This document shows positions 5,760-23,878 of a DNA stretch of 24,000 bases, in pieces. The stretch is from Neoroseomonas terrae. Its GTDB lineage: Bacteria > Pseudomonadota > Alphaproteobacteria > Acetobacterales > Acetobacteraceae. Location: assembly GCF_018129025.1 (NCBI RefSeq), contig NZ_JAAEDI010000014.1:94521-118520 (forward strand), given 5' to 3'. The notes beneath the pieces are model-generated. The model saw only the letters and a program-made list of their open reading frames with translations. It was not told where the DNA came from and did no database searches. Position 1 is the first letter of the stretch. Each line of letters opens with the position of its first letter. The translations under genes and the position numbers were made by a program.

Positions 5760-5781
5760 GCGATGGCTTGCTCACCATCGC
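5760..5781. other. Intergenic hairpin (7-bp perfect stem GCGATGG/CCATCGC, 8-nt loop) in the only sizeable gap of the minus-strand array
   Basis: Read directly from gcgatgg-cttgctca-ccatcgc. No T/U tract follows on either strand, so its role (attenuator, processing site or none) is open. Confidence 0.25.
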
Positions 5782-5829
5782 GTGTCGCTGCGCAATTGTG
5801 CGGCGAATGATGCGCACCGCGGCATCGCG

Positions 5830-6624: not shown

Positions 6625-6663
6625 CAATCCACTCCGGAATGGTCCTGGAAGGCGGCGGTGGGT

Positions 6664-7407
6664 TCAGGTGTCGGGCCGCCAGCCGATCTTGCGCAGCAGC
6701 GCCTGCCACTCGGCGCGGCCATATTCGTCGCCATCCCGCCAGCGGCGCATCTTCGCGCCGATCTGCGGGACCAGCGCGGCATCGACCTCAACCGGCGCGA
6801 CGCCGAGCGAGCGCGACAGCACCTCCACGTCGCAGGCGCGATCCAGCTTGTACATGCGCAGCATCGTGCCATGCACATTCCGGCCGAAGGTCAGCAGGCC
6901 GTGATTGTGCAGGACGACGCAGCTGCCGAGGCGGCAAGTCTCGCCCAACGCATCGCATTCCTCCTGCGTCGAAGGCATGCCGTACGCATGGTAGGCAAGG
7001 TCATCATAGACATGCAGCACATCCTGGCTGATCGGCCGCAGCCCATTGGGCAGGAGGGAGGCTGCCATCCCGGCGCGGGTATGCGTGTGCAGCACGAAAT
7101 TCGCGTCCGGGCGCGCCAGCAGGACACCGCTGTGAATGGCGAAGCCCGCCTTGTTGAAGCGTCGGGAGTCGCCGATCACATTGCCCCGCATGTCCATCTT
7201 CACGAGGCTTGCGGGCGTGATTTCCTCGAACAGCTCGCCATAGTGGTTGATGAGGAAGGTGTCGGGCTCGTCCGGGATGCGGGCCGAGATGTGCGTATTG
7301 ACCAGATCGGTCCAGCCGAGATGCTCGCTGACGCGATACAGCGCGGCGAGTTCACACCGCGCTTGCCATTCGGCCGCCGACATGGTGGGGCTTGCGGCGA
7401 GCGACAT
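6664..7407 (-). CDS. Class II aldolase / adducin-domain protein, 247 aa
   Basis: Track ORF 6664..7473 trimmed to ATG 7407, 1 nt after the upstream stop (7411..7409). ATG 7383 is an alternative start. Family motifs are INHYGELFEEITPASLVKMD, AIHSGVLLARPDANFVLHTHT (metal-binding HxH) and VLHNHGLLTFG. Confidence 0.85.
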   Translation of the reverse strand: MSLAASPTMSAAEWQARCELAALYRVSEHLGWTDLVNTHISARIPDEPDTFLINHYGELFEEITPASLVKMDMRGNVIGDSRRFNKAGFAIHSGVLLARPDANFVLHTHTRAGMAASLLPNGLRPISQDVLHVYDDLAYHAYGMPSTQEECDALGETCRLGSCVVLHNHGLLTFGRNVHGTMLRMYKLDRACDVEVLSRSLGVAPVEVDAALVPQIGAKMRRWRDGDEYGRAEWQALLRKIGWRPDT

Positions 7408-7408
7408 C

Positions 7409-8809: not shown

Positions 8810-8813
8810 GATG

Positions 8814-9962: not shown

Positions 9963-9979
9963 GTCTTGCTCCGTTTCCC

Positions 9980-11557: not shown

Positions 11558-11673
11558 GCGCTGTAATCCCCTGCTGGAGTGCGACGTCCGTCCCGTGGTT
11601 GACTATAGAGATGCGGAAAATATCAGCAAGACGCTCTCATGCAGAAATAATAGGGTCGAAAAATAGGCAAAAC

Positions 11674-11688
11674 GACCATGAGATGGTC
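11674..11688. promoter_or_regulatory. Perfect palindrome GACCAT-N3-ATGGTC about 120 nt upstream of the minus-strand array; candidate operator
   Basis: Read directly from gaccatgagatggtc. It lies in the presumed promoter region of the SBP-led operon. No regulator gene is in the window, so this is a structural observation only. Confidence 0.2.
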
Positions 11689-12711
11689 ATGTCAACCGTG
11701 TGGTACCCACATCCAAGGGTTCCACGGCGCCAACGCTGGAATGTCTGGCCGTCGCATCCCGCCGTCGGTCTCGGGCAGACGCGAGATGCCTTCGCACTTG
11801 AAGCGGCGATGCGGTGCCGAACGCGTCCGGCGCGCGCGAATAGTGAACCGCGAGCGTAGAAGAGGCTGTCATCAAGCTGGGTTACGCTGCTGGCATCGAC
11901 GTCGCGCCAGCGGAGAGCGTAGATGCGCTCAACGGGCCAGAGTGGCGCATCGATTGGCGGGGCCATAGTGCGGGAGCGTTTTGCCGGCCTTGGTGCCGAC
12001 GCCACGCCGATAACGCCTGCGGGAATGGGCCGGCTTAAGTAGCCTGCCAATGGCTGAGCAATCCTTGTTAGGGACCCAGAAATTCCCTGTTCGGGTAGTA
12101 GGGTGTCCCGGCGGCAAGGCCCAAATTTCTTGGGTTTCGGGCGCGCAGCGACGATGGAATCCGGCGTTCTGCTCGAGTTTTCCCAGTATTTTCCCTGGTA
12201 GCCGGGAGTTCGGGCCCGAGGCGGGTTCGCCAATGACTAGCTCCGCCGCCAGTTCTCTTTGGCGTCCCGCTCTCCGCCTGCTGAGCTTTCACGCCGAGTG
12301 CAAGGTCTCTTGGAAGTTCCCGGGCGACCTGTTGACGGACCTACATCGTCACAACGGTTACAACCGCAAGAATGTGGCGACGGATACGGGCCGGAGGACG
12401 CTGGAGGTCCTGGCTATGCGCTGCTTCGGTCTTTTCCGCGCCGCGCGCACATCACGCTGACCAACCCGGCCCACCACATGCGCCGCCTGGTCTGGGTCGA
12501 AGGGAGAGGCGCGTCCGCGTGCAAGCCCAACCACCGGAAATACAGGCGGGGCGGTAATCGTCCCTGTCAGCGGTCGATAGACGGACGCCCGTCTCCTGCA
12601 GCGCCCCACTCGCCACTTTCACCGGCTTCCAATGGCGGGGATTGTTCGAGGTGTGCGTTCGCCGCGGTAGTGGATCAGACAAGACCTCACGGGATGATCC
12701 AGGTGTTCGTT

Positions 12712-12734
12712 GGCCTCCGTTGACTTAGGAGGCC
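12712..12734 (+). promoter_or_regulatory. Hairpin sequestering a Shine-Dalgarno sequence (anti-SD GGCCUCC / SD GGAGGCC, 9-nt loop)
   Basis: ggcctcc (12712-12718), gttgactta, ggaggcc (12728-12734): 7 perfect Watson-Crick pairs, 6 of them G:C. The 3' arm contains the GGAGG that sits 5 nt upstream of the ATG at 12738. No T-tract follows, so it is not a classical terminator. Confidence 0.4.
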
Positions 12735-12737
12735 GCA

Positions 12738-12863
12738 ATGCTAAGCACCACAATACCTACGCCGAATCGCATCATCCTGCTGGCCTGTCTGTGGCCGCGC
12801 ACCACACCGGAAGCCCGCCACAATGAATCACCTGACAATCAGAACGTTAAGCGTTTCTGGTAA
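12738..12863 (+). CDS. Small ORF, 41 aa (MLSTTIPTPNRIILLACLWPRTTPEARHNESPDNQNVKRFW), possible leader peptide or uORF of the MBOAT gene
   Basis: Below the ORF-track size cutoff and translated by hand. It has a canonical TAGGAGG-N5-ATG and a TAA stop at 12861-12863, 8 nt before the GTG start of the MBOAT gene. I recognise no homology, and the hydrophobic stretch IILLACLW is too short for a transmembrane helix. Confidence 0.3.
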   Translation: MLSTTIPTPNRIILLACLWPRTTPEARHNESPDNQNVKRFW

Positions 12864-12871
12864 GTAAAATC

Positions 12872-14293
12872 GTGGTTTTCTCGTCAGCGATATTTTTGTT
12901 TTTCTTTCTTCCTTTATTTTTTCTGTGTTATTTTACAGTAAAAATAGATAAAATCAGAAATTATATTATAATTGTTTTCTCCTTAATTTTCTATGGTTGG
13001 GGCGAACCGTGGTTCGTTCTGGTGCTTCTCTTATCGCTGGCGCTCAACTGGACGGCGGCGATCTATATAGATCGTGAAGAGCGACGGAATCGATTGATCG
13101 CCACGATCGTCGCCGTGGCACTGAATCTTCTCCTTCTGGCATCCTTTAAGTACGGGGATTTCATAGTTCAGAATATCAATGCAGTACTATTGCCCGTTCT
13201 CGGGGTTTCTATAAAGCAGCCAAATCTTCCCCTGCCATTGGGGATATCATTTTTCACGTTTCATTGCCTTTCTTATATCATTGATGTTTATCGGCGCCGC
13301 TTCCGCGCGAATAGGCGTCCTAGTGAAATCGCACTCTATATTGTTCTATTTCCGCAGCTCGTGGCGGGACCGATCGTGCGTTACAAAACAATCGCGCGGC
13401 AATTGCGCTCGCGCCGACATACACTTGGCCGAGCCTCGATCGGGGCGCGCATCTTCATTATCGGTCTAGCCCAAAAGATCCTTATCGCGGATCAGGTCGC
13501 AATCCTCGTAGAGACCGTCTTTGACCGCACCTCCGCGCCGTCGATGCTCGAGGCCTGGACAGGGTTGCTTGCCTATACGGTCCAGATTTATTTCGATTTC
13601 TGCGGCTACTCCAACATGGCGGTAGGCCTCGGATTCATCCTTGGCTTTAGTCTTCCGCGGAACTTCCGGCTTCCCTATACCGCGTTGTCCATCACCGATT
13701 TCTGGCGGCGCTGGCACATCTCCTTGTCGAGCTGGCTCAGGGACTACCTCTATATCCCGCTCGGCGGTAGCCGAGGCAGCTCTGCGCAACTCTACCGCAA
13801 TCTGATCCTCGTCTTCCTGCTTTGCGGGCTCTGGCACGGCGCCAACTGGACCTTCGTGCTCTGGGGCGCCTGGCATGGCGCCTTTTTGGTGATCGAACGG
13901 ATGGGCTTGAACCGCGTGCTGGGGAGGCTGCCGGTGGCGCTGCGCTGGGCCTACACAATCCTCGCCGTGATGGGTGGCTGGGTGCTGTTCCGCGCGCATG
14001 ACGTCGGCGGGGCTGCGGCGATGTATGCCGGGCTGCTGGGCTGGAACGGTATCGGCGCCATGCGCTTACAGGTCCATCTCGCGCTCGAGCCCGGCGTCAT
14101 GCTGGCGCTTGCAGCCGGATGGGCGTTCGCGACGATGCCGGCTTGGGGTCCTGCCCTGCGTCGATTGGCCGTCCCGGGCCTGGCTAGGCTTCGCGCCACA
14201 GTGGACACGGCCTGGACCTTTGGTCTGCTGATTCTCAGCCTGCTCTATGCTGCAGCCGGGACCTATAGCCCTTTTCTCTACTTCAGGTTCTGA
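12872..14293 (+). CDS. MBOAT-family membrane O-acyltransferase, AlgI-type (polysaccharide O-acetylation), 473 aa, GTG start
   Basis: The family-typical N-terminus MVFSSAIFLFFFLPL fixes the GTG at 12872 as the start. Motifs are FPQLVAGPIVRY, YFDFCGYSNMA, FWRRWHISLSSWLRDYLYIPLGG (catalytic His region) and CGLWHGANW. Confidence 0.9.
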   Translation: MVFSSAIFLFFFLPLFFLCYFTVKIDKIRNYIIIVFSLIFYGWGEPWFVLVLLLSLALNWTAAIYIDREERRNRLIATIVAVALNLLLLASFKYGDFIVQNINAVLLPVLGVSIKQPNLPLPLGISFFTFHCLSYIIDVYRRRFRANRRPSEIALYIVLFPQLVAGPIVRYKTIARQLRSRRHTLGRASIGARIFIIGLAQKILIADQVAILVETVFDRTSAPSMLEAWTGLLAYTVQIYFDFCGYSNMAVGLGFILGFSLPRNFRLPYTALSITDFWRRWHISLSSWLRDYLYIPLGGSRGSSAQLYRNLILVFLLCGLWHGANWTFVLWGAWHGAFLVIERMGLNRVLGRLPVALRWAYTILAVMGGWVLFRAHDVGGAAAMYAGLLGWNGIGAMRLQVHLALEPGVMLALAAGWAFATMPAWGPALRRLAVPGLARLRATVDTAWTFGLLILSLLYAAAGTYSPFLYFRF

Positions 14294-14298
14294 GGCCC

Positions 14299-15429
14299 AT
14301 GTTCTTCCGGTATCGCCGCGGATGGTTCCTCTGCCTGGTGGCCCTGCTCGCCGTGCCGCTGATTACCGGTGTGGTGTTCCCCAATACCATGCGCTCCCCC
14401 GATGAACTGCGCCCCCCTGCCGAAGCGCCCGCCATGCCGCGGGGCTGGCTCGAATGGATCACATTTCCAGCGCGGGTCGATCCCTGGCTGCGCGATAACT
14501 TCGGGCTTCGCCGCCACATGATCCATGCTCAGGCCTTGGTGGCGCACTGGCTGCTGGCCAGTGGCAATGACTCTGTGTTGATCGGCAAGCGCTGGCAGCT
14601 TTTCTATCGCGCAGAGGGAGCCGTTGAGCAGAGCGCCGGGCACCTGATCCGTGCGGATCAGGTGCGGCAGACGGCAGATCTCGTTCGCCAAGTCGATACG
14701 ATACTCGCCGCGCGCGGAATCGGGTTCATCTTCGGCGTCCCCCCGAACGGCAGCACGATCTATGACGACTTGCTGCCGCGCTGGGCTCGGCGCGGCGATC
14801 GGACAACTGAATACGACCTGCTGATGACGGAACTGCGCGAGCGCGGCGTCAGGACCCTCGACATGCGCCCTAGCCTTCGTGCCGCGCGGCAGGCCGGGCG
14901 CGTCTATTTTCGCTATGACACGCACTGGAACCCGGCGGGTTCGCTGGCCGGATACAACGCCGTAGTCGCCGCCATGGGACGCGAATCATGGCGGGTTGAT
15001 CGGCCTACGATCTTCGGGCCTACGACACGGCGCAGCGGCAGCGACCTCAGCCGTCTGCTCGGCCTGGGCGCCGATCTGTCCGAGCCCGTCCGCTACCTCA
15101 CGATCCCGATGCCTCAGGGCGAGACCTTGCCGGGTAACCCACCCTTTCCACCCCCCTTCGTCACCACATCCGATCGGGTCGAAGGGCCGACGATCATGAT
15201 CATCGGCGATTCCTTCTCCAACGTCGAAATTCTGATGCTGACCGCGCAGAATGCCCGGCGCGTCGTTTGGCTGCATCACGAGGGCTGTCACTTCGACTGG
15301 AAGTGGATCGACCAGTTCCAGCCCGACGAGATCTGGTGGCTGCCCGTCGAGCGGGCCATGCTCTGCTGGACCGACCGGCGCCCCAGGAACATGCCCGAGG
15401 CGCCCGCCGCGCCGCCTTCGCCCCGATAG
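14299..15429 (+). CDS. AlgJ/AlgX-like SGNH-type polysaccharide O-acetyltransferase partner, N-terminal membrane anchor, 376 aa
   Basis: The ATG is 5 nt after the MBOAT stop and preceded by GAGG. It has an N-terminal hydrophobic anchor (WFLCLVALLAVPLITGVVF). AlgJ/AlgX family motifs are IGKRWQLFY, VPPNGSTIYDDLLP and YFRYDTHWN (the D-x-H-W catalytic motif). Confidence 0.8.
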   Translation: MFFRYRRGWFLCLVALLAVPLITGVVFPNTMRSPDELRPPAEAPAMPRGWLEWITFPARVDPWLRDNFGLRRHMIHAQALVAHWLLASGNDSVLIGKRWQLFYRAEGAVEQSAGHLIRADQVRQTADLVRQVDTILAARGIGFIFGVPPNGSTIYDDLLPRWARRGDRTTEYDLLMTELRERGVRTLDMRPSLRAARQAGRVYFRYDTHWNPAGSLAGYNAVVAAMGRESWRVDRPTIFGPTTRRSGSDLSRLLGLGADLSEPVRYLTIPMPQGETLPGNPPFPPPFVTTSDRVEGPTIMIIGDSFSNVEILMLTAQNARRVVWLHHEGCHFDWKWIDQFQPDEIWWLPVERAMLCWTDRRPRNMPEAPAAPPSPR

Positions 15430-15465: not shown

Positions 15466-17421
15466 CTATAGCGGCTTCCGCGCGATGAAGACGCTGTTCG
15501 CGCCGCCGAGATACATGAACTGCGCCGACCAGTAGAACAGGCCCTCCGCGTCGCTGAAGCCGACGGCGGACAGGTCTTCGATGATCTTCCACCCAAAATA
15601 CTGGAAGCACAGGCTGCCGCCCTCCGGATCAACCGGATTGCCGTGGAACTCGGGTTCCATCAGATGCTCGATGGAGCCGTCAGGGCGCAGCACCGCACGC
15701 ACCAGGTGGCTGTGAAGATCCTCGCGGAATGGTGCCGTGAAAAGCAGCGAACCTCCCGGCTTCAGGCAGCGCCAGAACTCCGCGAGAGCCTGCCGCGCAT
15801 CGGGAACATGTTCGAGCACATCGAAGCTCAGGATCAGGTCCAGGCCCGCATCGGGAAAGCTCAGCCGATGAACGTCCTCGTGACGCAGGCCGTCCACGAT
15901 CTCGCCCGGGGTGTGGCCCGGGCCCAGGTACTCGCTGCCAACGACGAAGGGAAAGCGCTGGCGCAGCCAGTCATGCAGCGGCGTGACCTGCTCGGTGATG
16001 TAGATGCGGTCGTGCTGCCGCGGCCGGAGTTCCTGCCAGAGGAGATGCAAAGAAGCCCGCAGCCGGTTGCCGAGGCCGCAGCCCGTGCAGGCCAGGTGCT
16101 CCCGCCAGTTCGGCAGGGTGCGCCCGTCCGGCAGTCGTCCGGTCGCGTAGTTGAAGTTGACCTGAAGCGGCCGCGTGCCGCCGCAGACGACGCACTGGCC
16201 TTCGACCGTGAACCCCGCCTCGCCGGACTCGTTTGGCACCAGGCTCGCCTCGAAGGCACGGCGTCGCGCCATCTTCGGCGCGAGGTCGGCCGCGAACGCC
16301 GACATCTCGCCCTGGGAACGTGCGCGCAGCACCGGCAGGTTGGGTGCCCGGGCCTCGATGGTGAGAGGCCGCGAGGACGCCGCGGCGCCTTTCACCGCGG
16401 TGAAGTCCTGCAGCGAACTCGGGCTGTGCTCGTTCTCCTGCCCGGCACCATTCCAGCGGAAGGCATAGGGGATGCGCCGGTAGTCCTCTCGCCCAAAGCG
16501 CCTTACTTCGGACCGATATTGCTCAAACAGCGTTCCGACGTCGCGCAGTGCCTCCGTGCGGAACTGCTGGCTGTGACGACTGAAGCTCGAATCCTCATCG
16601 ACCGCCGAACCGCTGAAATGGAAGAAGCGAAGCGGCGCGCCGTTGACCTTCCAGCCGCCGGCGCTTGGTTCCGCCGGCGCCCGAACCGTTCGCTGCGCAA
16701 GATTCCAATAAGCCACATTGTAGCCGGGATGGCGCAGGATGGCGGTGTGCTCGATGAAGGCCGGCAGCAGGTCCGCCCATTTCTGATCGACGAAGAATCC
16801 CGCTGCGAGATCGATGATGCAGTGCGTCTCGAGCCGGCGCGCCCACCATGCCGCAACACGGCGCACCGTAGCCGTATCGCGCAGCGCACAGAAACCGAGG
16901 TTGTAGATGCCGAACCGCAGCATCTTCGATTCATCCATCTCGGCATACTCCGCGGGCTCACAGAGATGCGGCGTCAGGACGCAATCCGCCCCGCCGTCTG
17001 ACAGCAGGGTGTGCAGTTCCTCCAGCGGCGACATGACCCATATATCCGGATCGAAATAGGCGACGGCCGCGCCGGGGTGCCGATCGAACAGCGTCAGAAA
17101 GGCGAAAGGTTTGATGGCGGTGTTGAGCTCCGTGATGTTGTATCGCTCGGTCATCTGAGCGAGCTGCGGGATTCCCAGATCACTCATGCGGAGGATGTCG
17201 AAGGGCAGGCCGTCGAAATCGACGCCAGTCGGCTCGTCGCACAGGGCGACGTAGAAGTGGACCCCCGGATGATGTCGTCTCAGGCTGTCATGCAACACCT
17301 GCGCCTGGGCCAGGAAGTTTCTCGAACAGATCGTGAAGGCGATGAAGGCTGGTGCAACTGCCGGCTCCATGTCGCTGCCATCTAAGCGGCCTGCTGGCTC
17401 TCTCATCATGAAGACATCCAT
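15466..17421 (-). CDS. Bifunctional putative glycosyltransferase (GT-A-like, DxD) / Cys4 zinc-ribbon / class-I SAM-dependent methyltransferase, up to 651 aa
   Basis: The N-terminal ~330 aa has FTICSRNFLAQAQVLHDSLRRHHPG, the DxD-like YFDPDIWV and FVDQKWADLLP..GYNVAYWNL. The Cys pairs CVVCGG and CTGCG lie at about nt 16075-16200. The C-terminus has the methyltransferase motifs LILSFDVLEHVPD and LKPGGSLLFTAPF. The start is uncertain among ATG 17421, 17409/17406 and 17370. It begins 6 nt after the upstream gene's stop. Confidence 0.8.
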   Translation of the reverse strand: MDVFMMREPAGRLDGSDMEPAVAPAFIAFTICSRNFLAQAQVLHDSLRRHHPGVHFYVALCDEPTGVDFDGLPFDILRMSDLGIPQLAQMTERYNITELNTAIKPFAFLTLFDRHPGAAVAYFDPDIWVMSPLEELHTLLSDGGADCVLTPHLCEPAEYAEMDESKMLRFGIYNLGFCALRDTATVRRVAAWWARRLETHCIIDLAAGFFVDQKWADLLPAFIEHTAILRHPGYNVAYWNLAQRTVRAPAEPSAGGWKVNGAPLRFFHFSGSAVDEDSSFSRHSQQFRTEALRDVGTLFEQYRSEVRRFGREDYRRIPYAFRWNGAGQENEHSPSSLQDFTAVKGAAASSRPLTIEARAPNLPVLRARSQGEMSAFAADLAPKMARRRAFEASLVPNESGEAGFTVEGQCVVCGGTRPLQVNFNYATGRLPDGRTLPNWREHLACTGCGLGNRLRASLHLLWQELRPRQHDRIYITEQVTPLHDWLRQRFPFVVGSEYLGPGHTPGEIVDGLRHEDVHRLSFPDAGLDLILSFDVLEHVPDARQALAEFWRCLKPGGSLLFTAPFREDLHSHLVRAVLRPDGSIEHLMEPEFHGNPVDPEGGSLCFQYFGWKIIEDLSAVGFSDAEGLFYWSAQFMYLGGANSVFIARKPL

Positions 17422-17427
17422 CTTCGA

Positions 17428-20208
17428 TCATTTGGTGGCCGGGAGGCCCAGCGCGTGAAGCATCTCGGCCAGCCGACGCGCGCCTGCGTCGACCGAGAAT
17501 TTTGCCTGCGCCTGCGCATGGCCGCCGGCGGAGAGTCTGGCCCACAGCGTCGGATCTTCGTGCAGGTCGCAGATCCGCGCGGCGAAGGATTCCGGCGTGT
17601 CCGCGATGGCAACGTCGCGGCCGTCCTGTAGGTGCATTCCCTCCGCCGCCATCGGCGTGGCCACGCAGGGGGTGCCGGCGGCGAGGCTTGATGCCACCTT
17701 GCCCTTGGCACCCGCGCCGTAACGCAGAGGTGCGACCGTCAGGCGCAGGCCGTCGAACCAGGGCTCGAGATCGGGCAGGGGGCCGAGATAGCGGACGCCG
17801 GGTGGCATCTGCGACCGTAGATCCTCCGGCAGGTCCGCCCCGACAATCGACATCGTCGCGTGCGGTAGACGCTGCGCCACGTGTGGCCAGATTTCGTCAA
17901 GCAGATACCGCACTGCATCGACGTTCGGCGTATGTTCGAAGCCACCGACGAAACCCAAGCCGCTGCGGCCTGCGAAGCCGGGGATGGCCGCCGCCGGGCG
18001 GACTGGGCGCGCGAGCGGCATTTCGAACACCGCCGAACCGGGCACGTCGCGCAACAGCACGGCGCGTTCGGCGGAGGAGACGACAATCGTCGCGTCGGCT
18101 TGGCGCGTCAGATAGTATTCTCGCTCCCGGGTCGTCTCCGAAAGGCGCATTTCCTCCAGGTTGCCGGTCAGCCGCGCTTCTCGGTCCTCTCGCATATGGT
18201 GCAGATCGACCGTGTTGAAGACGACCTTTGCGCGCGGCGCATGCCGGCGGACGGCTTCGAGATAGCGGCCACCGTGATAGACGCGCGAAAGGATGCACAG
18301 CGTCAGCGTCTCACCGTCGCTGCGAAGGAAGGCCTGGATCGAGGGTGTGAGTCGCGGCGTCAGGCAGATGATGCCTTCTGCTTCCAGGCTGTCGCGATAG
18401 GAAGACGACTCACGGAAAGAATGATCCCCCACGAACACGACCTCATAGCCGAATTCGCGCAGCGTGCGGGCCTGGAGCACGGCGTCGACCGATCCCGAAT
18501 CGCGATCCGGCCTGGGCCAGCGACTGTCGATGATAAGGGCACGCGGTTTGGCAGGGGGCGGCAGACAGGCCCGCCCGCCATCCTTGACGACAACCGGTTC
18601 CACGAAGGTAGGCCGCCAGCCTGTAGGTGCGACCGGCAGCAGTGGCGGCTTGTGACCTGACGAGGGGGAGAAGGCCTTGGTTTTGCCGGCGTTCGGCCGG
18701 ACCGCGGCACCCTGGCCGGTCGCGTGGTTGGCCGTTGCATCGCGGTACAGACGCAGGCGGTGCGGGAGTTGCAGGGAGATGGTCCACCAGAGCAGCTTGG
18801 CGCTGCGACCCACGGCGCGGCGCAGGCTGGTGGGCAGGCGCTGCCCGATGCGGCGGATCGGGTTGGTAGCGCGCCAGAGTGTGCTGTTCTCGATAGCCCG
18901 CAGGCGGTCCTGACTGGACTGAAGTTCCGACCGCGCACCACGTTCGGCGGCGGCGCGGGCCTCGGCCCGGGCGACGGCCGCGGTGATTTCCGCGCGCAGC
19001 GTCGCGGCCTCGGCCTGGGCCTGCGCGATGGCGGCCGCGTTTTCCGCATGCAGCGCCGCCGCCTTGTCATCGGCCTGCGCGATGGCGGCCGCGTTTTCCG
19101 CGTGCAGCGCCGCCGTCTTGCCATCGGCCTGCGCGATGGCGGCCGCGCTTTCCGAGCGCAGCGCCGCGGCCTCGGCCCTGGCCGCGCCATGGGCCTCCAT
19201 CTCGCGGCGCAATCGCTCCTCCAACCCGCTCACCCGCTGGTCGAGGCGCAGCGAGAGGTAGCGGCGGCAATCCGCCGCGCTCAGCGCGACCAGATTGAAG
19301 TAATCGGGACCGCCGGGTTCGGTGCCGTCATCGCCGGCGTGCAATTCGCGCCCGATCCCGCTCTCACCGAGATGGAAGAGGCGATAGCCCCACTCTCGCA
19401 GTTGGGTCAGCAGCGCCTCGGCGGTGGTGCCACTGACCCGGCTCAGCCAATGGGGGAAGACCTCGACCAGCAGGACCGGCCGATCGCGGGCAATCAGCGC
19501 CTGCGCGCCCCGCAGCACCAGCGGTTCGGCCCCTTCCACGTCGATCTTGATCAGCCGCACCGGACCCTCGATGCCAAGCGCATCCAGCGGTCGAACCGGC
19601 ACCCGACCCAGCGAAACCGCGCCCTCCGGCATGGCGCCGGGGACGAGGAAGCTGTGGCCGGGATTGCGTTCATCCGGCGCCCAGGCCAACTCGATCGCCC
19701 CTTCCTCGGCGCCAAGCGCGATCGCCTCGATGCGGCAGCGCTCGTCGAAGCCATTGTCGGCAACGGACTGACGCAAGCGGCGGGAAAGGTCCGCCCGTGG
19801 CTCGAAGGCATGAACCCGGCCCTGGGGCCCCACCGCCTGCGCCGCAAGGATCGAGAACCACCCGATATTCGCCCCGACATCGATGAAGCCGTCGCCGGGT
19901 TCGAGCACGGTCAGGATGAAATCCGTCTCGGCCGGTTCCCACGCCCCGCGCAGGCACCCCAGCGAGACACCGTGATCGGCGAGGTCAAGCCAGAGCTTCA
20001 GGCCGTCGCGGATCTCTGCGCAGACCCACTTGCTGCGCGCGAACACGTCCACGGCCATGCGTGCGCGAAACTCCTCGCTCTCCAGCAACCGCTGCCCCAG
20101 CGCAGTCGCCGACGCCGCTTCCCGCGCCGCCGCGACCGTCACCTCACTCTCCGGCTCCCGGCCAAGGATCGCTCCATATATCGCCACAACGTCTTCACGA
20201 GTGATCAT
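17428..20208 (-). CDS. Multidomain FkbM-family methyltransferase / Ala-rich coiled coil / GT-B (group-1, GT4-like) glycosyltransferase, 926 aa
   Basis: Track ORF 17428..20529 trimmed to ATG 20208 (MITREDVV...), preceded by AGGA. FkbM motifs are FIDVGANIGWFSILAA, VHAFEP and LIKIDVEGAEPLVL. The coiled coil carries 18-aa repeats. The GT-B part has LIIDSRWPRPDRDSGS and GAGAKGKVASSLAAGTPCVATPMAAEG. Confidence 0.85.
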   Translation of the reverse strand: MITREDVVAIYGAILGREPESEVTVAAAREAASATALGQRLLESEEFRARMAVDVFARSKWVCAEIRDGLKLWLDLADHGVSLGCLRGAWEPAETDFILTVLEPGDGFIDVGANIGWFSILAAQAVGPQGRVHAFEPRADLSRRLRQSVADNGFDERCRIEAIALGAEEGAIELAWAPDERNPGHSFLVPGAMPEGAVSLGRVPVRPLDALGIEGPVRLIKIDVEGAEPLVLRGAQALIARDRPVLLVEVFPHWLSRVSGTTAEALLTQLREWGYRLFHLGESGIGRELHAGDDGTEPGGPDYFNLVALSAADCRRYLSLRLDQRVSGLEERLRREMEAHGAARAEAAALRSESAAAIAQADGKTAALHAENAAAIAQADDKAAALHAENAAAIAQAQAEAATLRAEITAAVARAEARAAAERGARSELQSSQDRLRAIENSTLWRATNPIRRIGQRLPTSLRRAVGRSAKLLWWTISLQLPHRLRLYRDATANHATGQGAAVRPNAGKTKAFSPSSGHKPPLLPVAPTGWRPTFVEPVVVKDGGRACLPPPAKPRALIIDSRWPRPDRDSGSVDAVLQARTLREFGYEVVFVGDHSFRESSSYRDSLEAEGIICLTPRLTPSIQAFLRSDGETLTLCILSRVYHGGRYLEAVRRHAPRAKVVFNTVDLHHMREDREARLTGNLEEMRLSETTREREYYLTRQADATIVVSSAERAVLLRDVPGSAVFEMPLARPVRPAAAIPGFAGRSGLGFVGGFEHTPNVDAVRYLLDEIWPHVAQRLPHATMSIVGADLPEDLRSQMPPGVRYLGPLPDLEPWFDGLRLTVAPLRYGAGAKGKVASSLAAGTPCVATPMAAEGMHLQDGRDVAIADTPESFAARICDLHEDPTLWARLSAGGHAQAQAKFSVDAGARRLAEMLHALGLPATK
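18643..20208. repeat. Direct repeat copy A (1566 bp) = N-terminal cassette of gene 17428..20208
   Basis: Aligns with 22313-23878 at a constant +3670 offset. Line-by-line comparison found 8 mismatches, all at or below 18974, and no indels. Confidence 0.95.
19021..19176. repeat. In-frame 54-bp tandem repeat (2 near-identical units + 1 degenerate, with a further degenerate unit upstream) in the coiled-coil region of copy A
   Basis: Units at 19021-19074 and 19075-19128 differ at 3 of 54 positions, and 19129-19176 is degenerate. They encode AAAIAQADGKTAALHAEN / AAAIAQADDKAAALHAEN / AAAIAQAQAEAATLRAEI. Confidence 0.85.
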
Positions 20209-23200
20209 GCTGGGATCCTGAACTGTCCGCGTCGCTGGCGGGAGTTCCTGGTGTTGAAGCTCGAGCCATAGGGCCAGCGCCCGTGCCGGGGTGCAGCGGA
20301 GGTTGCAACGGCAGCGCGTTCGCGCTCTCCAGCGTCCTGGCCAGTTCGATGCAGCGCGCCGCCTCCGCCCGCTCCAGCCCGAAGACACCGGCCGCGTATT
20401 CGAGGAAGGCTCGCGCAGCCTGACGGCGTTCCGCATCGGGGCTGGAAACGCGCGCGGCCAGAGCCTGGACCTGGGCGATCTCCTCCAGATGACGGGTATG
20501 CCCCGAGGTGATCGTAAGGCCCCGCGCATGCCGCCGGTGATGGTTCAGCGCCGCCGCCTTGAAGGCAATGTCCCCGCGTTCCAGCATGCGGATATAGAAC
20601 AGCCAGTCCGCCGCGTTGCGCAGGGAGACCATGGCCTCGATGGTTTCGGACAGGACAGGTAGCGCGGCATCGCGCCGCATCACCACGGCGCTCACATTGA
20701 GAATAGTGTTCTTCACGCTGAGGCAGTGTCGGATCTCCTCGCTGCCCGGGCGCCGGTAGTCGGAGGTCCAGAGCGCAGGATCCACATCGCTCGTATAGGC
20801 GACATAGTCCGGCGCGATGACCGCGCCGTGCTCGTCGATCTGCTTCGACTGCGTATAGGCCATCACGACGGCTGGATTGGCGAATTCCGGAATGAGGGAA
20901 TTGAGAAAGGCCGGTTCCGAAAGATCGTCGGCCTCGGCAATCCAGACCAGCGGATACCGCGCCAATTCGACGCCCCGAGCCCATTGCCGAGACACGCTTC
21001 CAGAGTTCTGCGCATTCGGCACGATCCGCATCGGTACGGGCGACGACGCGCGCAAGGTCTCGAGAACAGCCAGGCTGTCGTCCGATGAGGCATCGTCAAG
21101 CACGATGAGTTCCGATACCTGATGGCTTTGCGCCCAGATGGAACGCACACGCTCCGGCAGGTATCTCGCATAGTTGTAGTTCGGAACGACGGCCGTCACG
21201 CGGTTGGGCGGCAGAGCCAGGGTGGCAAGGTCCCGCACATAGGCAGGAAAGCTCAGCCTGTCCGCGACGATCCGCTCGCCCGCCTGGCCTGCGTGCGCCC
21301 TGAGCACCGGATCGCGGATCAGCGCGCCGATCGCCTGGCCCATCGCTTCGGCATCTTCGAACGCCGGGGGGAGCAAGCCCGTCTCGCGGGCAAGCTCGGG
21401 CATCCCGCCGCTCCGATCGAAGCAGATGACAGGAAGCCCATGCGCGGCGGCTTCAAGCGCCGAGCTCGGAAAGGGATCCTCGCGCGAGGAAAGCAGGAAG
21501 ATGTCGGCGGCGGAGAGGAACTCCTGCGGCGTCTCCGTCTTCCCCGGCAACAGGATGACATCCTGGAGGTGTTGCGCCTCAATCGCGGCGCGCAGTCCGG
21601 CCTCCACTCCCGGTTCAATGGCACCGACCCAGGCGAAGCGCGCCGCATGCCCCTCTGCGCGCAGGGCCGACGCGATGGCTGGCCATAGGTCCAGGCCCTT
21701 GCGGCGATCCCCGAAGCCGAGGCCAAGGATCAGGATCGTGTCCGGCCCCACACCCAAAGCACTGCGAATGCGCACGCGCGCCGCCTCGCGCTGATCCGGA
21801 GGCAGCGACGGGCGGTATAGCCCCTGCGGCCGAACCAGCCATCGATGCCTCGTATCTCCGAATGTTCCGATGAAGGCAGCGCGCACCGCATCATTCGGAA
21901 AGACCACGACATCGGCTTCAGCTGCGACGGTTCTCGCAGCGGCCTCCAGCCCGTACTCGCGGATGATGCCAGGCATCTCATGGACTAGGCAGATGCTTCG
22001 CAGCCCTGCCGCGGCAAGGGCAGGGATGATCTGGCCGGAGACCGTCGTATTGCAGATGACGGTCGAGACCCCGCTACCGGCCAGGTCCCGGGCCGTGGCC
22101 TCCCAGGCCTGTCGGTCGGCGAAGGGAACGAGTCGGGTGTGCGCTACCGCCGCCATCGCGTCCCGGAGCTCGCCGCCATCGCCGAGAATGATCTCGACCT
22201 CACATTCGCCCTGTCGGACCACTTCCTCGGCGATGTGCAGCACCAGCAATGGAGCGCCGTGAAAGCGGGCGTCATGAGAGATGATGGCGATGCGCTGCTC
22301 CGCTCGAGTTGTTGGCGGCTTGTGCCCTGACGAGGGGGAGAAGGCGTCGGTTTTGCCGGCGTTCGGCTGGACCGCGGCACCCTGGCCGGTCGCGTGGTGG
22401 GCCGTTGCATCGCGGTACAGGCGCAGGCGGTGCGGGAGTTGCAGGGAGATGGTCCACCAGAGCAGCTTGGCGCTGCGACCCACGGCGCGGCGCAGGCTGG
22501 TGGGCAGGCGCTGCCCGATGCGGCGGATCGGGTTGGTAGCGCGCCAGAGTGTGCTGTTCTCGATAGCCCGCAGGCGGTCCTGACTGGACTGAAGTTCCGA
22601 CCGCGCGCCACGTTCGGCGGCGGCGCGGGCCTCGGCCCGGGCGCCGGCCGCGGTGATTTCCGCGCGCAGCGTCGCGGCCTCGGCCTGGGCCTGCGCGATG
22701 GCGGCCGCGTTTTCCGCATGCAGCGCCGCCGCCTTGTCATCGGCCTGCGCGATGGCGGCCGCGTTTTCCGCGTGCAGCGCCGCCGTCTTGCCATCGGCCT
22801 GCGCGATGGCGGCCGCGCTTTCCGAGCGCAGCGCCGCGGCCTCGGCCCTGGCCGCGCCATGGGCCTCCATCTCGCGGCGCAATCGCTCCTCCAACCCGCT
22901 CACCCGCTGGTCGAGGCGCAGCGAGAGGTAGCGGCGGCAATCCGCCGCGCTCAGCGCGACCAGATTGAAGTAATCGGGACCGCCGGGTTCGGTGCCGTCA
23001 TCGCCGGCGTGCAATTCGCGCCCGATCCCGCTCTCACCGAGATGGAAGAGGCGATAGCCCCACTCTCGCAGTTGGGTCAGCAGCGCCTCGGCGGTGGTGC
23101 CACTGACCCGGCTCAGCCAATGGGGGAAGACCTCGACCAGCAGGACCGGCCGATCGCGGGCAATCAGCGCCTGCGCGCCCCGCAGCACCAGCGGTTCGGC

Positions 23201-23878
23201 CCCTTCCACGTCGATCTTGATCAGCCGCACCGGACCCTCGATGCCAAGCGCATCCAGCGGTCGAACCGGCACCCGACCCAGCGAAACCGCGCCCTCCGGC
23301 ATGGCGCCGGGGACGAGGAAGCTGTGGCCGGGATTGCGTTCATCCGGCGCCCAGGCCAACTCGATCGCCCCTTCCTCGGCGCCAAGCGCGATCGCCTCGA
23401 TGCGGCAGCGCTCGTCGAAGCCATTGTCGGCAACGGACTGACGCAAGCGGCGGGAAAGGTCCGCCCGTGGCTCGAAGGCATGAACCCGGCCCTGGGGCCC
23501 CACCGCCTGCGCCGCAAGGATCGAGAACCACCCGATATTCGCCCCGACATCGATGAAGCCGTCGCCGGGTTCGAGCACGGTCAGGATGAAATCCGTCTCG
23601 GCCGGTTCCCACGCCCCGCGCAGGCACCCCAGCGAGACACCGTGATCGGCGAGGTCAAGCCAGAGCTTCAGGCCGTCGCGGATCTCTGCGCAGACCCACT
23701 TGCTGCGCGCGAACACGTCCACGGCCATGCGTGCGCGAAACTCCTCGCTCTCCAGCAACCGCTGCCCCAGCGCAGTCGCCGACGCCGCTTCCCGCGCCGC
23801 CGCGACCGTCACCTCACTCTCCGGCTCCCGGCCAAGGATCGCTCCATATATCGCCACAACGTCTTCACGAGTGATCAT
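20195..23878 (-). CDS. Multidomain FkbM-family methyltransferase / coiled coil / GT-B (GT4-like) / GT-A (GT2-like) glycosyltransferase, 1227 aa
   Basis: Track ORF 20195..23968 trimmed to ATG 23878, chosen by identity with the paralog's start. Upstream ATGs at 23968 and 23923 are possible but fall outside the duplicated cassette. The GT-B part (about nt 21200-22295) has ICLVHEMPG and FLLSSREDPFPSSALEAAAHGLPVICFD. The GT-A part (about nt 20500-21200) has VTAVVPNYNYARYL, ELIVLDDASSDDS and WIAEADD. Confidence 0.85.
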   Translation of the reverse strand: MITREDVVAIYGAILGREPESEVTVAAAREAASATALGQRLLESEEFRARMAVDVFARSKWVCAEIRDGLKLWLDLADHGVSLGCLRGAWEPAETDFILTVLEPGDGFIDVGANIGWFSILAAQAVGPQGRVHAFEPRADLSRRLRQSVADNGFDERCRIEAIALGAEEGAIELAWAPDERNPGHSFLVPGAMPEGAVSLGRVPVRPLDALGIEGPVRLIKIDVEGAEPLVLRGAQALIARDRPVLLVEVFPHWLSRVSGTTAEALLTQLREWGYRLFHLGESGIGRELHAGDDGTEPGGPDYFNLVALSAADCRRYLSLRLDQRVSGLEERLRREMEAHGAARAEAAALRSESAAAIAQADGKTAALHAENAAAIAQADDKAAALHAENAAAIAQAQAEAATLRAEITAAGARAEARAAAERGARSELQSSQDRLRAIENSTLWRATNPIRRIGQRLPTSLRRAVGRSAKLLWWTISLQLPHRLRLYRDATAHHATGQGAAVQPNAGKTDAFSPSSGHKPPTTRAEQRIAIISHDARFHGAPLLVLHIAEEVVRQGECEVEIILGDGGELRDAMAAVAHTRLVPFADRQAWEATARDLAGSGVSTVICNTTVSGQIIPALAAAGLRSICLVHEMPGIIREYGLEAAARTVAAEADVVVFPNDAVRAAFIGTFGDTRHRWLVRPQGLYRPSLPPDQREAARVRIRSALGVGPDTILILGLGFGDRRKGLDLWPAIASALRAEGHAARFAWVGAIEPGVEAGLRAAIEAQHLQDVILLPGKTETPQEFLSAADIFLLSSREDPFPSSALEAAAHGLPVICFDRSGGMPELARETGLLPPAFEDAEAMGQAIGALIRDPVLRAHAGQAGERIVADRLSFPAYVRDLATLALPPNRVTAVVPNYNYARYLPERVRSIWAQSHQVSELIVLDDASSDDSLAVLETLRASSPVPMRIVPNAQNSGSVSRQWARGVELARYPLVWIAEADDLSEPAFLNSLIPEFANPAVVMAYTQSKQIDEHGAVIAPDYVAYTSDVDPALWTSDYRRPGSEEIRHCLSVKNTILNVSAVVMRRDAALPVLSETIEAMVSLRNAADWLFYIRMLERGDIAFKAAALNHHRRHARGLTITSGHTRHLEEIAQVQALAARVSSPDAERRQAARAFLEYAAGVFGLERAEAARCIELARTLESANALPLQPPLHPGTGAGPMARASTPGTPASDADSSGSQHDHS
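22313..23878. repeat. Direct repeat copy B (1566 bp) = N-terminal cassette of gene 20195..23878
   Basis: Partner of 18643-20208. Identity stops exactly at the A of the ATG (23878 vs 20208) and, at the other end, just after the codons for ..SSGHKPP. Confidence 0.95.
22691..22846. repeat. Same 54-bp tandem repeat in copy B
   Basis: Identical to 19021-19176 at the +3670 offset. Confidence 0.85.

What the first reader, a model, noticed from the sequence alone, without database searches (positions are those of the whole stretch)
17428..23878. Methyltransferase / coiled-coil / glycosyltransferase single polypeptides: candidate self-contained polymerase-terminator-ruler enzymes
Both proteins join a SAM methyltransferase (FkbM family) to glycosyltransferase domains through an Ala-rich helical segment of roughly 125 residues (from LDQRVSGLEERLRRE to SQDRLRAIEN). 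There is precedent in ABC-transporter-dependent O-antigen synthesis. E. coli O8/O9a WbdD is a terminating methyltransferase or kinase-methyltransferase carried on a coiled coil that sets chain length. WbbB of Raoultella terrigena / Klebsiella O12 combines a terminating transferase, a coiled-coil ruler and polymerising GTs in one protein. The GT-B + GT-A pair of the 1227-aa protein is what a disaccharide-repeat polymerase would need. An FkbM-type methyl cap fused this way, present as two paralogs sharing one terminator/ruler cassette, is not an arrangement I recognise as characterised. No wzm/wzt, wzx/wzy or initiating transferase lies in the window, so the export pathway is unknown.
Basis: inference. 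Interest (0 to 1): 0.75.

Follow-up and report, generated by a model that had tools for sequence, protein, structure and literature searches.

The report
Methyl-capping, spacer-linked sugar-chain polymerase pair
Two neighbouring Roseomonas genes each join a methyl-adding enzyme, through a long helical spacer, to sugar-chain-building enzymes; this looks like a new variant of the known systems that build, cap and measure bacterial surface sugar chains, and the two genes keep their shared front half nearly identical.

Summary
Genes A (17428-20208, minus strand, 926 aa) and B (20195-23878, minus strand, 1227 aa) share a 522-aa cassette. It holds an FkbM methyltransferase, a ~120-130 aa Ala-rich helix with four 18-aa tandem repeats, and a basic Trp-rich segment. 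In A it is fused to a GT4 module, in B to GT4+GT2.

A's GT4, B's GT4+GT2 and the downstream protein C (GT8-like transferase plus methyltransferase) all have 39-54% identical counterparts in two wzm/wzt loci. One of these loci also has a CBM-bearing Wzt and a stand-alone methyltransferase-coiled coil protein ending in the same SxxWRxxxPxR motif. The cassette also exists as a stand-alone protein, like WbdD.

Three caveats apply:
- The proteins are not self-contained.
- No transporter lies within about 9-17 kb in any of three genomes.
- The Ala-rich helix shows no significant heptad signal, so a coiled coil and a ruler role remain inferred.

The methyltransferase-coiled coil-GT-GT arrangement is already characterised (K. 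pneumoniae O7 ORF6; WsaE without a described coil).

Three things are new. The cap domain is FkbM-type. Relatives carry pyruvyl- or sulfotransferase heads instead. Gene conversion keeps the two paralogs' cassettes 99% identical within each genome, while their repeat arrays differ between genomes.

The parts
20195..23878 (-). Gene B, 1227 aa: FkbM methyltransferase, helical spacer, basic segment, GT4 (GT-B), GT2 (GT-A)
   Evidence: ORF and translation; Pfam and NCBIfam. The C-terminal 708 aa are 41% identical over 649 aa (E 3e-138) to the GT4+GT2 protein of the Lysobacter wzm/wzt locus L090.
17428..20208 (-). Gene A, 926 aa: FkbM methyltransferase, helical spacer, basic segment, GT4 (GT-B). Its ATG overlaps the last codons of B by 14 nt.
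   Evidence: Identical to R. terrae P0004. AF2 model: pLDDT 81. The GT domain folds like retaining GT4 enzymes BshA, HepE, MshA and PimA.
22313..23878 (-). Shared cassette, copy in B (aa 1-522): terminator candidate, spacer and basic anchor segment
   Evidence: Direct repeat at offset 3670, 99.5% identical.
18643..20208 (-). Shared cassette, copy in A (aa 1-522)
   Evidence: The same conversion tract, from the ATG to the linker, is 99.1-99.9% identical in Roseomonas sp. OT10 and Roseococcus pinisoli.
19279..20208 (-). FkbM-family SAM methyltransferase domain of A (aa 1-310); the copy in B is 22949-23878
   Evidence: PF05050 E 1e-17; TIGR01444 E 2e-27; sub-threshold V_cholerae_RfbT hit; PDB 2py6 FkbM; AF2 pLDDT mostly 80-95.
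18889..19278 (-). Ala-rich helical spacer of A (aa 311-440); the copy in B is 22559-22948
   Evidence: AF2 helices 311-383 and 391-440 at pLDDT 65-79, with a low-confidence break at 384-390. No Pro and 36% Ala. Length between flanking motifs is 108-328 aa in homologs.
18958..19192 (-). 54-nt (18-aa) tandem repeat array inside the spacer, 4.4 copies; the copy in B is 22657-22846 as called by TRF
   Evidence: OT10 has 66-nt units x4.7 and R. pinisoli 78-nt units x3.5 at the same place.
18721..18885 (-). Basic, Trp-rich helices after the spacer (aa 442-496, STLWRATNPIRR...AKLLWW); the copy in B is 22391-22555. Candidate membrane-interface or recruitment segment.
   Evidence: 11 K/R, 1 D/E and 3 W. 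Three short helices in AF2. W475 and R484 are nearly invariant. The SxxWRxxxPxR motif also ends the stand-alone MT-coil proteins L090:5388-6527, P0266 and P0296.
17431..18543 (-). GT4 (GT-B) module of A (aa 556-926), with the PRPDRDSGS motif
   Evidence: Pfam; AF2 and Foldseek. 40% identical (E 2e-83) to the GT4 gene that follows wzm-wzt in L091, and 39% (E 2e-86) to the GT4 inside Lysobacter P0155. At least 4469 cluster representatives at E<=1e-30.
21224..22297 (-). GT4 (GT-B) module of B (about aa 528-885)
   Evidence: Pfam Glyco_trans_1_4 and Glycos_transf_1; PDB WaaG E 9e-11.
20375..21208 (-). GT2 (GT-A) module of B plus its conserved C-terminal extension (about aa 891-1168); the last ~59 aa are a low-complexity tail
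   Evidence: Pfam Glycos_transf_2 E 3e-18; chondroitin synthase 2z86 E 1e-7; the alignment to the L090 protein runs to aa ~1168.
15466..17421 (-). Conserved partner of A-type proteins.
   Evidence: Pfam MT at 512-613. AF2 pLDDT 88, pTM 0.89. Foldseek: GT8 3tzt, LgtC, XXYLT1, LARGE1, and sugar O-MTs AtmM/RebM. Invariant D124-P-D126. Sits immediately downstream of X-coil-GT4 genes in 10 loci. 2502 homologs at E<1e-10.
12872..15429 (+). MBOAT (473 aa) and AlgX-like SGNH (376 aa) pair, convergent with the operon. Possible periplasmic O-acetylation of the exported glycan; whether it belongs to the system is uncertain.
   Evidence: Pfam MBOAT E 9e-32 and ALGX E 2e-23. GC 0.56 against about 0.66. Conserved next to the operon in OT10 and R. 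pinisoli but absent from L004.

Best explanation
A, B and C are cytoplasmic, membrane-associated components of a machine that builds a methylated surface polysaccharide on a lipid carrier. The glycan is most likely an LPS O-polysaccharide, possibly a capsule-like glycan, exported by an ABC transporter encoded elsewhere in the genome.

**Shown**
- The operon encodes four glycosyltransferase modules: GT4+GT2 in B, GT4 in A, and a GT8-like module in C.
- It encodes three SAM methyltransferase modules: two near-identical FkbM domains and a class I domain in C.
- Each FkbM domain is separated from its GT module(s) by a proline-free helix of about 130 aa, a basic Trp-rich segment and a disordered linker.
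- All GT and class-I-MT modules have 39-54% identical counterparts inside wzm/wzt loci.
- The FkbM-helix-motif cassette occurs elsewhere as a separate protein.

**Inferred mechanism**
1. The basic segment holds the proteins at the membrane, next to the growing undecaprenyl-linked chain.
2. The GT modules polymerise the repeat, and C's methyltransferase methylates internal residues.
3. The helices oligomerise into a rod that holds the FkbM domains roughly 150-190 A away.
4. Only chains that have reached that length are therefore O-methylated at the non-reducing end. This stops extension and licenses export.
5. Because A and B carry the same cassette, they probably co-assemble in one rod, which brings all polymerase modules together.
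For: **Architecture and models**
- Domain order.
- AF2 gives confident FkbM (1-310) and GT-B (556-919) domains joined by long helices 311-440, short basic helices 443-496 and a disordered linker 497-544.
- Protein C is a confident GT-A plus MT model.

**Pathway assignment by homologous modules**
- In L091 the gene order is wzm, wzt, a 559-aa GT4 (40% identical to A's GT4, E 2e-83), then a C homolog.
- Lysobacter locus L090 holds wzm; wzt with a Wzt_C carbohydrate-binding module; a Methyltransf_24 protein with a ~120-aa coil ending 'SFSWRLAAPMRW'; a GT4+GT2 protein 41% identical over 649 aa to B's C-terminus (E 3e-138); and a C-type protein with an A-type GT4 inserted.
- The more distant FkbM-300-aa coiled coil-GT2 protein P0035 lies in an ABC2_membrane/ABC_tran/Poly_export cluster.

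**The cassette is an autonomous module**
- Stand-alone FkbM-coil-SxSWRxTAPLR proteins exist: P0266 (500 aa) and P0296 (462 aa).
- The same coil, motif and GT4 body carries PS_pyruv_trans or Sulfotransfer_3 heads in other genomes. The swapped heads all add non-sugar groups, as terminators do.

**Spacer behaviour**
- Length ranges from 108 to 328 aa.
- Lineage-specific tandem repeats are 18 aa x4.4, 22 aa x4.7 and 26 aa x3.5.
- Less Ala-rich homologs show significant periodicity of about 3.5 residues (P0009 z=2.9, P0011 z=5.1).

**Precedents**
- The coiled coil is described as the characteristic marker of polymerase-terminator systems, and O7 ORF6 has an MT-coil-GT-GT layout (PMC11231755).
- WsaE is a methyl-cap MT plus two GTs (PMC2943079).
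- There is a weak RfbT-family hit. V. cholerae RfbT methylates the terminal perosamine of the O1 antigen (own knowledge).
Against: - No wzm/wzt, initiating transferase or ligase lies within 17 kb downstream or 8.8 kb upstream in R. terrae, or within 10 kb either side in OT10 and R. pinisoli.
- None of about 30 related loci has a Wzt-type ATPase within 10 kb.
- A Pfam census of 123 neighbouring ORFs in 14 loci found no ABC2_membrane, Wzt_C, Wzx/Wzy, Bac_transf or Poly_export.
- The window's helix has no significant amphipathic periodicity (z=-0.7).
- AF2 was a monomer model with moderate pLDDT and a break at 384-390, so a coiled coil is not demonstrated.
- There is no sequence similarity to WbdD or WbbB.
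- Nothing here shows that FkbM acts on the terminal residue rather than on internal ones.
- No structure of a Roseomonas surface glycan was found.
Confidence: 0.6

Rival explanations
1. Same pathway, but no ruler. The helix is only an oligomerisation or scaffold element, or a flexible tether. The FkbM domains methylate internal sugars of the repeat, as a decoration, and chain length is set by something else.
For: - The window's helix lacks a significant coiled-coil periodicity.
- The operon already shows a taste for methylation, since C carries its own MT.
- Having two FkbM copies per complex is not needed for a cap.
Against: - Internal methylation is more simply done by a domain next to the GT. 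C's MT is packed against its GT in the AF2 model (pTM 0.89).
- FkbM, by contrast, is held behind 130 helical residues, a basic segment and a 50-aa linker.
- The head position is exchangeable for pyruvyl- and sulfotransferases.
- The cassette exists as a separate protein, next to a CBM-bearing Wzt in the analogous Lysobacter case.
Confidence: 0.22
2. Cytoplasmic protein glycosylation. The enzymes build and methylate a glycan directly on a protein such as flagellin, which would explain why no lipid-carrier, flippase or exporter genes are nearby.
For: - In Agrobacterium pusense the homolog P0032 sits with GT2, GT4 and epimerase genes 5 kb from a 616-aa flagellin gene.
- FkbM methyltransferases and GT-MT fusions are common in flagellin glycosylation islands (PMC4875605, PMC5109656).
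- About 30 related loci have no exporter nearby.
Against: - Flagellin is adjacent only in A. pusense.
- Homologs of all the GT and MT modules lie inside wzm/wzt loci, one of them with a Wzt_C module.
- A basic, Trp-rich interface segment and a long spacer have no obvious role in flagellin modification.
- The adjacent MBOAT/AlgX pair acts outside the cytoplasm.
Confidence: 0.07
3. An intracellular polymethylated polysaccharide, analogous to mycobacterial methylmannose polysaccharide, made by alternating glycosyl and methyl transfer and never exported.
For: - The gene set is GT plus MT without export genes.
- A methylmannose-polysaccharide mannosyltransferase (7qsg) is among the fold matches of A's GT4 (rank 29).
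Against: - The fold match is generic for GT4 enzymes.
- Homologous modules lie in wzm/wzt loci.
- The proteins have a membrane-type basic segment.
- An MBOAT/AlgX pair lies next to the operon in three genomes.
Confidence: 0.03

Closest known systems
Klebsiella pneumoniae O7 ORF6 (Kelly, Whitfield and colleagues, J Biol Chem 2024, PMC11231755)
   Same: One polypeptide with an N-terminal SAM methyltransferase terminator, a central helical or coiled-coil spacer and C-terminal GT modules. A further GT is supplied by a separate protein. It is experimentally shown to polymerise and terminate an ABC-transporter-dependent O-polysaccharide.
   Different: - ORF6's methyltransferase is not FkbM-type. It works with a kinase domain, so the cap is methyl-phosphate, and ORF6 also has a CBM-like domain.
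- ORF6 has two GT2 modules; here the modules are GT4, or GT4+GT2.
- ORF6's locus contains wzm/wzt; this one does not.
- ORF6 is a single protein, not two paralogs sharing a cassette.
E. coli O8/O9a (K. pneumoniae O5/O3) WbdD
   Same: A terminating methyltransferase (O8) or kinase-methyltransferase (O9a) at the N-terminus of an extended coiled coil. The coil ends in a membrane-associated amphipathic region that recruits the polymerase, and its length sets chain length (PMC11231755, PMC3482155). Stand-alone relatives of the Roseomonas cassette (P0266, P0296) have exactly this layout.
   Different: - No detectable sequence similarity, and a different MT family.
- In Roseomonas the cassette is covalently fused to the GT modules.
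- In WbdD the coil was shown to be a ruler; here that is only inferred.
Raoultella terrigena / K. pneumoniae O12 WbbB
   Same: Terminator, coiled-coil ruler and two polymerising GT modules in a single protein (PMC11231755).
   Different: WbbB's terminator is a Kdo transferase (a sugar cap), not a methyltransferase. No sequence similarity was found.
Geobacillus stearothermophilus WsaE (S-layer glycan; PMC2943079)
   Same: An N-terminal O-methyltransferase that makes the 2-O-methyl cap, fused to two glycosyltransferase domains, working with a second GT protein in a Wzm/Wzt pathway.
   Different: [quoted passage not shown] It is from a Gram-positive S-layer glycoprotein pathway.
Lysobacter sp. 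Root983 wzm/wzt locus (L090; uncharacterised, found here)
   Same: It contains 39-54% identical counterparts of B's GT4+GT2, A's GT4 and protein C. It also has a methyltransferase-coiled coil protein ending in the same SxSWRxxxPxR motif, next to a wzt with Wzt_C.
   Different: Its terminator candidate is a separate Methyltransf_24 protein, not FkbM. The A-type GT4 is inserted into the C-type protein. The transporter is in the locus.

Membership tests
Polymerase-terminator systems with a coiled-coil ruler (WbdD / WbbB / KpO7 ORF6 kind) | A chain-terminating catalytic module at the membrane-distal end of a long helical spacer | tested here: met
   FkbM domain at aa 1-310 is followed by helices 311-440. 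That it acts as a terminator is inferred, not shown.
Polymerase-terminator systems with a coiled-coil ruler (WbdD / WbbB / KpO7 ORF6 kind) | The spacer is an extended, oligomeric coiled coil | tested here: inconclusive
   - The AF2 monomer model is helical at pLDDT 65-79, with a break at 384-390.
- The segment has no Pro in 120 aa.
- Hydrophobic periodicity is not significant in the window (z=-0.7) but is significant in homologs P0009 (z=2.9) and P0011 (z=5.1).
- No multimer model was possible.
Polymerase-terminator systems with a coiled-coil ruler (WbdD / WbbB / KpO7 ORF6 kind) | Polymerising GT modules on the same protein, or recruited at the membrane-proximal end | tested here: met
   A has a GT4 module, B has GT4+GT2, and the partner C has a GT8-like module. 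The basic Trp-rich segment at 442-496 lies between coil and GTs.
Polymerase-terminator systems with a coiled-coil ruler (WbdD / WbbB / KpO7 ORF6 kind) | Wzm/Wzt ABC transporter (often with a cap-binding CBM on Wzt) encoded with the system | tested here: not met
   None in the window. None 8.8 kb beyond its end. None within 10 kb either side in OT10 and R. pinisoli. Homologous modules are next to wzm/wzt in L090 (with Wzt_C) and L091. The rest of the genome could not be searched.
Polymerase-terminator systems with a coiled-coil ruler (WbdD / WbbB / KpO7 ORF6 kind) | A non-reducing-end cap on the glycan, and a modal chain length that depends on coil length | not testable with these tools
   Needs NMR or MS of the glycan and coil-length mutants.
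WbdD / WbbB protein families (by sequence) | Detectable sequence homology to the solved WbdD or WbbB chains | tested here: not met
   phmmer of A and B against all PDB sequences returns only generic GT4, GT2, class I MT and FkbM (2py6) hits.
FkbM-family SAM methyltransferases (PF05050 / TIGR01444) | A profile match above the curated threshold | tested here: met
   PF05050: 65.3 bits against a cut-off of 22.7. TIGR01444: 96.3 bits against 37.7.
GT4 retaining GT-B glycosyltransferases | A profile match and the GT-B fold | tested here: met
   Glyco_trans_1_4: 76.4 bits against a cut-off of 27. Foldseek to BshA, HepE, MshA and PimA at E 5e-12 to 2e-11, TM (target) about 0.7.
Flagellin glycosylation island | Location next to flagellin or flagellar genes | tested here: not met
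   tblastn with the A. pusense flagellin finds it only in L002 and L003. There are no flagellar genes in the window or in L001, L006 or L092.

The most novel reading that the evidence does not exclude
The two paralogs form one hetero-oligomeric rod through their identical cassettes. A single ruler then carries all polymerase modules at its base and several FkbM cap enzymes at its tip. Gene conversion is what keeps the two spacers the same length. A gain or loss of an 18-aa repeat would then spread to both genes and retune the modal chain length of the surface glycan in one step. On this reading the head position is a general 'cap socket' that can also hold pyruvyl- or sulfotransferases. That would mean pyruvate and sulfate act as chain terminators in other bacteria.
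Probability: 0.3. Interest if true: 0.7.

Novelty: new variant of a known kind. Interest (0 to 1): 0.5.

Why it matters
Chain-length control by a coiled-coil ruler has been demonstrated only in the E. coli O9 serogroup (K. pneumoniae O3) and in K. pneumoniae O12 (PMC11231755).

This locus suggests the same logic is widespread in soil and water Alphaproteobacteria, built from different parts:
- an FkbM cap enzyme;
- a conserved post-coil SxxWRxxxPxR basic motif that could serve as a search handle for such systems;
- heads that can be exchanged for pyruvyl- or sulfotransferases.

The paired paralogs may be a natural experiment on the ruler idea. Their cassettes are homogenised within each genome, while the repeat arrays differ between genomes (18, 22 or 26 aa units). 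If the spacer sets chain length, both proteins must carry the same spacer, and repeat gain or loss gives a simple route to changing O-chain length.

The locus also shows that these assembly genes can sit far from their transporter. That matters for automated recognition of O-antigen loci.

Tried and rejected
- **Exact-sequence look-ups.** Look-ups of B, C and P0004 found no record. Context came instead from OT10, R. pinisoli and a JGI assembly of the same strain.
- **Sequence search against solved structures.** It gave no WbdD or WbbB relation.
- **Coiled-coil test.** A Fourier test for heptad or hendecad hydrophobic periodicity was not significant for the Ala-rich Roseomonas and Roseococcus spacers. 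I therefore do not claim a demonstrated coiled coil. By hand, the 18-aa unit (5.0 helical turns) places L4, A15, N8, A1 and I12 on one face, but four repeats are too few to test.
- **Dimer model.** A linker-fused dimer for AF2 was considered and dropped.
- **Transporter search.** A regex scan for Wzt-type ATPases (Walker A plus the SSGM signature) in 86 loci found them only next to distant, stand-alone FkbM genes (L048, L053, L073, L078, L083).
- **Flagellin lead.** Followed and found confined to A. pusense.
- **Methylmannose-polysaccharide idea.** Considered and rejected, as set out under the rival explanations.
- **Literature.** A search for FkbM with coiled-coil, O-antigen and chain length found no paper among the listed hits that uses 'FkbM' in this setting. 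A search for a Roseomonas O-antigen structure found nothing.
- **B. pseudomallei parallel.** It has a methylated, acetylated disaccharide O-antigen (PMC5524647). I checked PMC3250505 for wbiD, but the text gave no usable annotation, so no claim is made.

Full report
**1. What is there**

The window is high-GC DNA (about 66%). Its protein A is identical to 'FkbM family methyltransferase [Roseomonas terrae]'. A JGI assembly, L092, is 99.84% identical over 13.8 kb.

Three tightly packed genes lie on the minus strand:
- B, 20195-23878, 1227 aa.
- A, 17428-20208, 926 aa. Its ATG overlaps the end of B by 14 nt.
- C, 15466-17421, 651 aa, starting 6 nt after A.

Positions 1-11557 hold an unrelated peptide-type ABC transporter, aminotransferase and amidohydrolase cluster. 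An MBOAT/AlgX-like pair at 12872-15429 converges on the operon.

**2. The shared cassette**

A and B share 1566 nt (18643-20208 and 22313-23878) with 8 mismatches. The first 1234 nt from the ATG are identical. Identity begins exactly at the start codon and ends in a linker.

The AF2 model of A used a 23-sequence alignment and reached mean pLDDT 81. It divides the protein as follows:

| Residues | Feature |
|---|---|
| 1-310 | FkbM domain, confident |
| 311-383 and 391-440 | Helices, pLDDT 65-79, with a weak break between them |
| 443-496 | Three short helices |
| 497-544 | Disordered linker |
| 556-919 | GT-B domain, confident |

The long helix is 36% Ala, has no proline, and contains 4.4 tandem copies of an 18-aa unit. 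The segment at 442-496 has 11 Lys/Arg, 1 acidic residue and 3 Trp. That composition fits a membrane-interface or docking segment.

**3. Concerted evolution**

Roseomonas sp. OT10 and Roseococcus pinisoli have the same B-A-C order.

- Within each genome the two cassettes are 99.1-99.9% identical at DNA level, over the same tract from the ATG to the linker.
- Between genomes the cassettes are only 73-78% identical in protein sequence.

The A/B split therefore predates these lineages, and the cassettes are being homogenised by gene conversion.

The repeat arrays inside the helix differ between genomes but are the same in both paralogs of each genome:

| Genome | Repeat unit | Copies |
|---|---|---|
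| R. terrae (window) | 18 aa | 4.4 |
| Roseomonas sp. OT10 | 22 aa | 4.7 |
| Roseococcus pinisoli | 26 aa | 3.5 |

Across more distant homologs, the distance between the motifs that flank the helix ranges from 108 to 328 aa.

**4. Is it a coiled coil?**

This is not settled. The helix is long and proline-free. Homologs with less alanine show significant periodicity near 3.5 residues (P0009 z=2.9, P0011 z=5.1). More distant relatives, P0034 and P0035, have sequences over 300 aa that look like canonical coiled coils.

The window's own Ala-rich segment gives no significant signal (z=-0.7), and only a monomer could be modelled. It could be a non-heptad bundle or a stable single helix. Either would act as a spacer.

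**5. Which pathway?**

No exporter or initiation gene lies near the operon in three genomes, nor within 10 kb of about 30 related loci. Taken alone, that would favour a cytoplasmic product. The modules themselves point the other way.

- *Protein C.* It is a confident GT8-like GT-A domain plus a sugar-O-methyltransferase-like domain. It belongs to a very large family. It sits directly downstream of X-coil-GT4 genes in 10 loci.
- *Locus L091.* The gene order is wzm, wzt, then a GT4 40% identical to A's GT4 (E 2e-83), then a C homolog.
- *Lysobacter locus L090*. It holds:
  - wzm;
  - wzt with the Wzt_C carbohydrate-binding module;
  - a GT4+GT2 protein 41% identical to B's C-terminal 649 aa (E 3e-138);
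  - a C-type protein with an A-type GT4 inserted (39% identical, E 2e-86);
  - immediately after wzt, a Methyltransf_24 protein whose C-terminal ~120 aa are coil-like and end 'SFSWRLAAPMRWLSTKLKGK'.

The window's helix ends in the same kind of motif, 'STLWRATNPIRR'. Every part of the Roseomonas operon thus has a counterpart in a typical ABC-transporter-dependent locus. There, the methyltransferase-coil unit is a separate protein, as WbdD is.

Stand-alone FkbM-coil-SxSWRxTAPLR proteins also exist (P0266, P0296). The distant FkbM-coil-GT2 protein P0035 lies in an ABC2/ABC/Poly_export cluster.

**6. Exchangeable heads**

The same coil, motif and GT4 body carries other heads in other genomes:
- a polysaccharide pyruvyl transferase in Caballeronia, Afipia, Methylobacterium and an acidobacterial MAG;
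- a sulfotransferase in Oceanicaulis and a Pseudomonadales MAG.

All of these heads add small non-sugar groups. That is what terminators do in the known systems.

**7. Comparison with what is known**

The literature describes the coiled coil as the characteristic marker of polymerase-terminator assembly. The terminator sits at the distal end, and the polymerase modules are distributed variably between proteins (PMC11231755).

- K. pneumoniae O7 ORF6 is a methyltransferase(-kinase)-coiled coil-GT2-GT2 protein that works with a separate GT.
- WbbB is a terminator-coil-GT-GT protein.
- WbdD is a terminator-coil-anchor protein.
- WsaE is a cap methyltransferase plus two GTs (PMC2943079).

The Roseomonas proteins work like these but are not sequence relatives of WbdD or WbbB. 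One defining feature of the kind, a linked transporter, is not met locally.

FkbM methyltransferases also occur in flagellin glycosylation islands (PMC4875605, PMC5109656). One homolog, in A. pusense, lies near a flagellin gene. That rival is kept at low probability.

**8. Verdict**

These are very probably polymerase components of an ABC-transporter-type, methylated surface glycan pathway. Each carries a cap-type FkbM enzyme on a variable helical spacer. They are neither self-contained nor the first of their kind.

What is new is the FkbM head, the conserved post-coil motif, the swappable heads, the distance from any transporter, and the pair of paralogs whose terminator-spacer cassettes are kept identical by gene conversion. 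The last point suggests, without proving, a shared heteromeric rod.

Scores: confidence in the main explanation 0.6; interest 0.5; novelty, new variant of a known kind.

Noticed in passing
window 12872-15429 (+): An MBOAT protein (473 aa, DltB/AlgI-like) and an AlgX-like SGNH protein (376 aa) form a pair with GC 0.56, against about 0.66 around them. The pair converges on the operon. It is conserved beside the operon in OT10 and R. pinisoli but absent from L004. It is probably an extracytoplasmic O-acetylation pair, possibly acquired by horizontal transfer.
   Followed up: partly
L092:7118-8617 (equivalent to about 24157-25656, just beyond the window end): A 499-aa GT2 gene lies 280 nt upstream of B on the same strand. 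Its N-terminus carries a basic 'ISRRSAPLRRLIDWLSKIRR' stretch that resembles the post-coil motif. It is absent from the OT10 locus. It may be a fifth GT module of the system.
   Followed up: partly
L092 versus the window (whole overlap): The JGI assembly of the same strain has 9 indels in 13.8 kb. These indels split gene B into 380-aa and 859-aa calls and fragment the MBOAT gene. They look like assembly errors rather than biology, and they show how the repeat confuses gene calling.
   Followed up: partly
L004:8579-15208: A minimal two-gene module (FkbM-coil-GT4 plus a C homolog) sits between an EPSP-synthase-family gene and a 51-aa EPSP_synthase fragment. It looks like an insertion that duplicated or cut the end of the host gene, which suggests the module is mobile.
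   Followed up: no
L002:3068-12616 and L003:2251-11802 (Agrobacterium pusense): An unusually long flagellin (616 aa) lies 5 kb from GT2, GT4, epimerase and FkbM-GT4 (P0032) genes, among IS66, IS21 and IS3 elements. It could be a flagellin glycosylation island that uses a relative of protein A with a short, proline-interrupted linker.
   Followed up: partly
L090:5388-6527; P0266; P0296; P0017; P0034: The motif S-x-x-W-R-x-x-x-P-x-R, followed by basic residues, recurs at the end of coiled coils in many otherwise unrelated polysaccharide enzymes, both stand-alone and fused. It may be a general membrane-docking or polymerase-recruitment signature and a useful search handle. It matched no Pfam or NCBIfam model in the proteins scanned here.
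   Followed up: partly
L009, L010, L011, L021 (pyruvyl transferase heads); L023, L025 (sulfotransferase heads): Large proteins have a PS_pyruv_trans or Sulfotransfer_3 N-terminal domain, a coil, and the same C-terminal GT4. They are often followed by a protein C homolog. Sulfotransferase genes are the most frequent neighbours: 8 of 123 ORFs in 14 loci.
   Followed up: partly
window 19-11557: An unrelated cluster. It holds a fused permease-ATPase of a peptide/nickel-type ABC importer (759 aa), two family-5 solute-binding proteins, a luciferase-like monooxygenase, a class III aminotransferase and an amidohydrolase. The long ORFs at 5725-7458 (+) and 9860-11533 (+) have no Pfam match and may be shadows of genes on the other strand.
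   Followed up: no
window 11557-12872: A stretch of about 1.3 kb between the transporter cluster and the MBOAT gene has only two ORFs without any Pfam match (11637-12233 minus strand, 12259-12723 plus strand). The GC content drops here.
   Followed up: no
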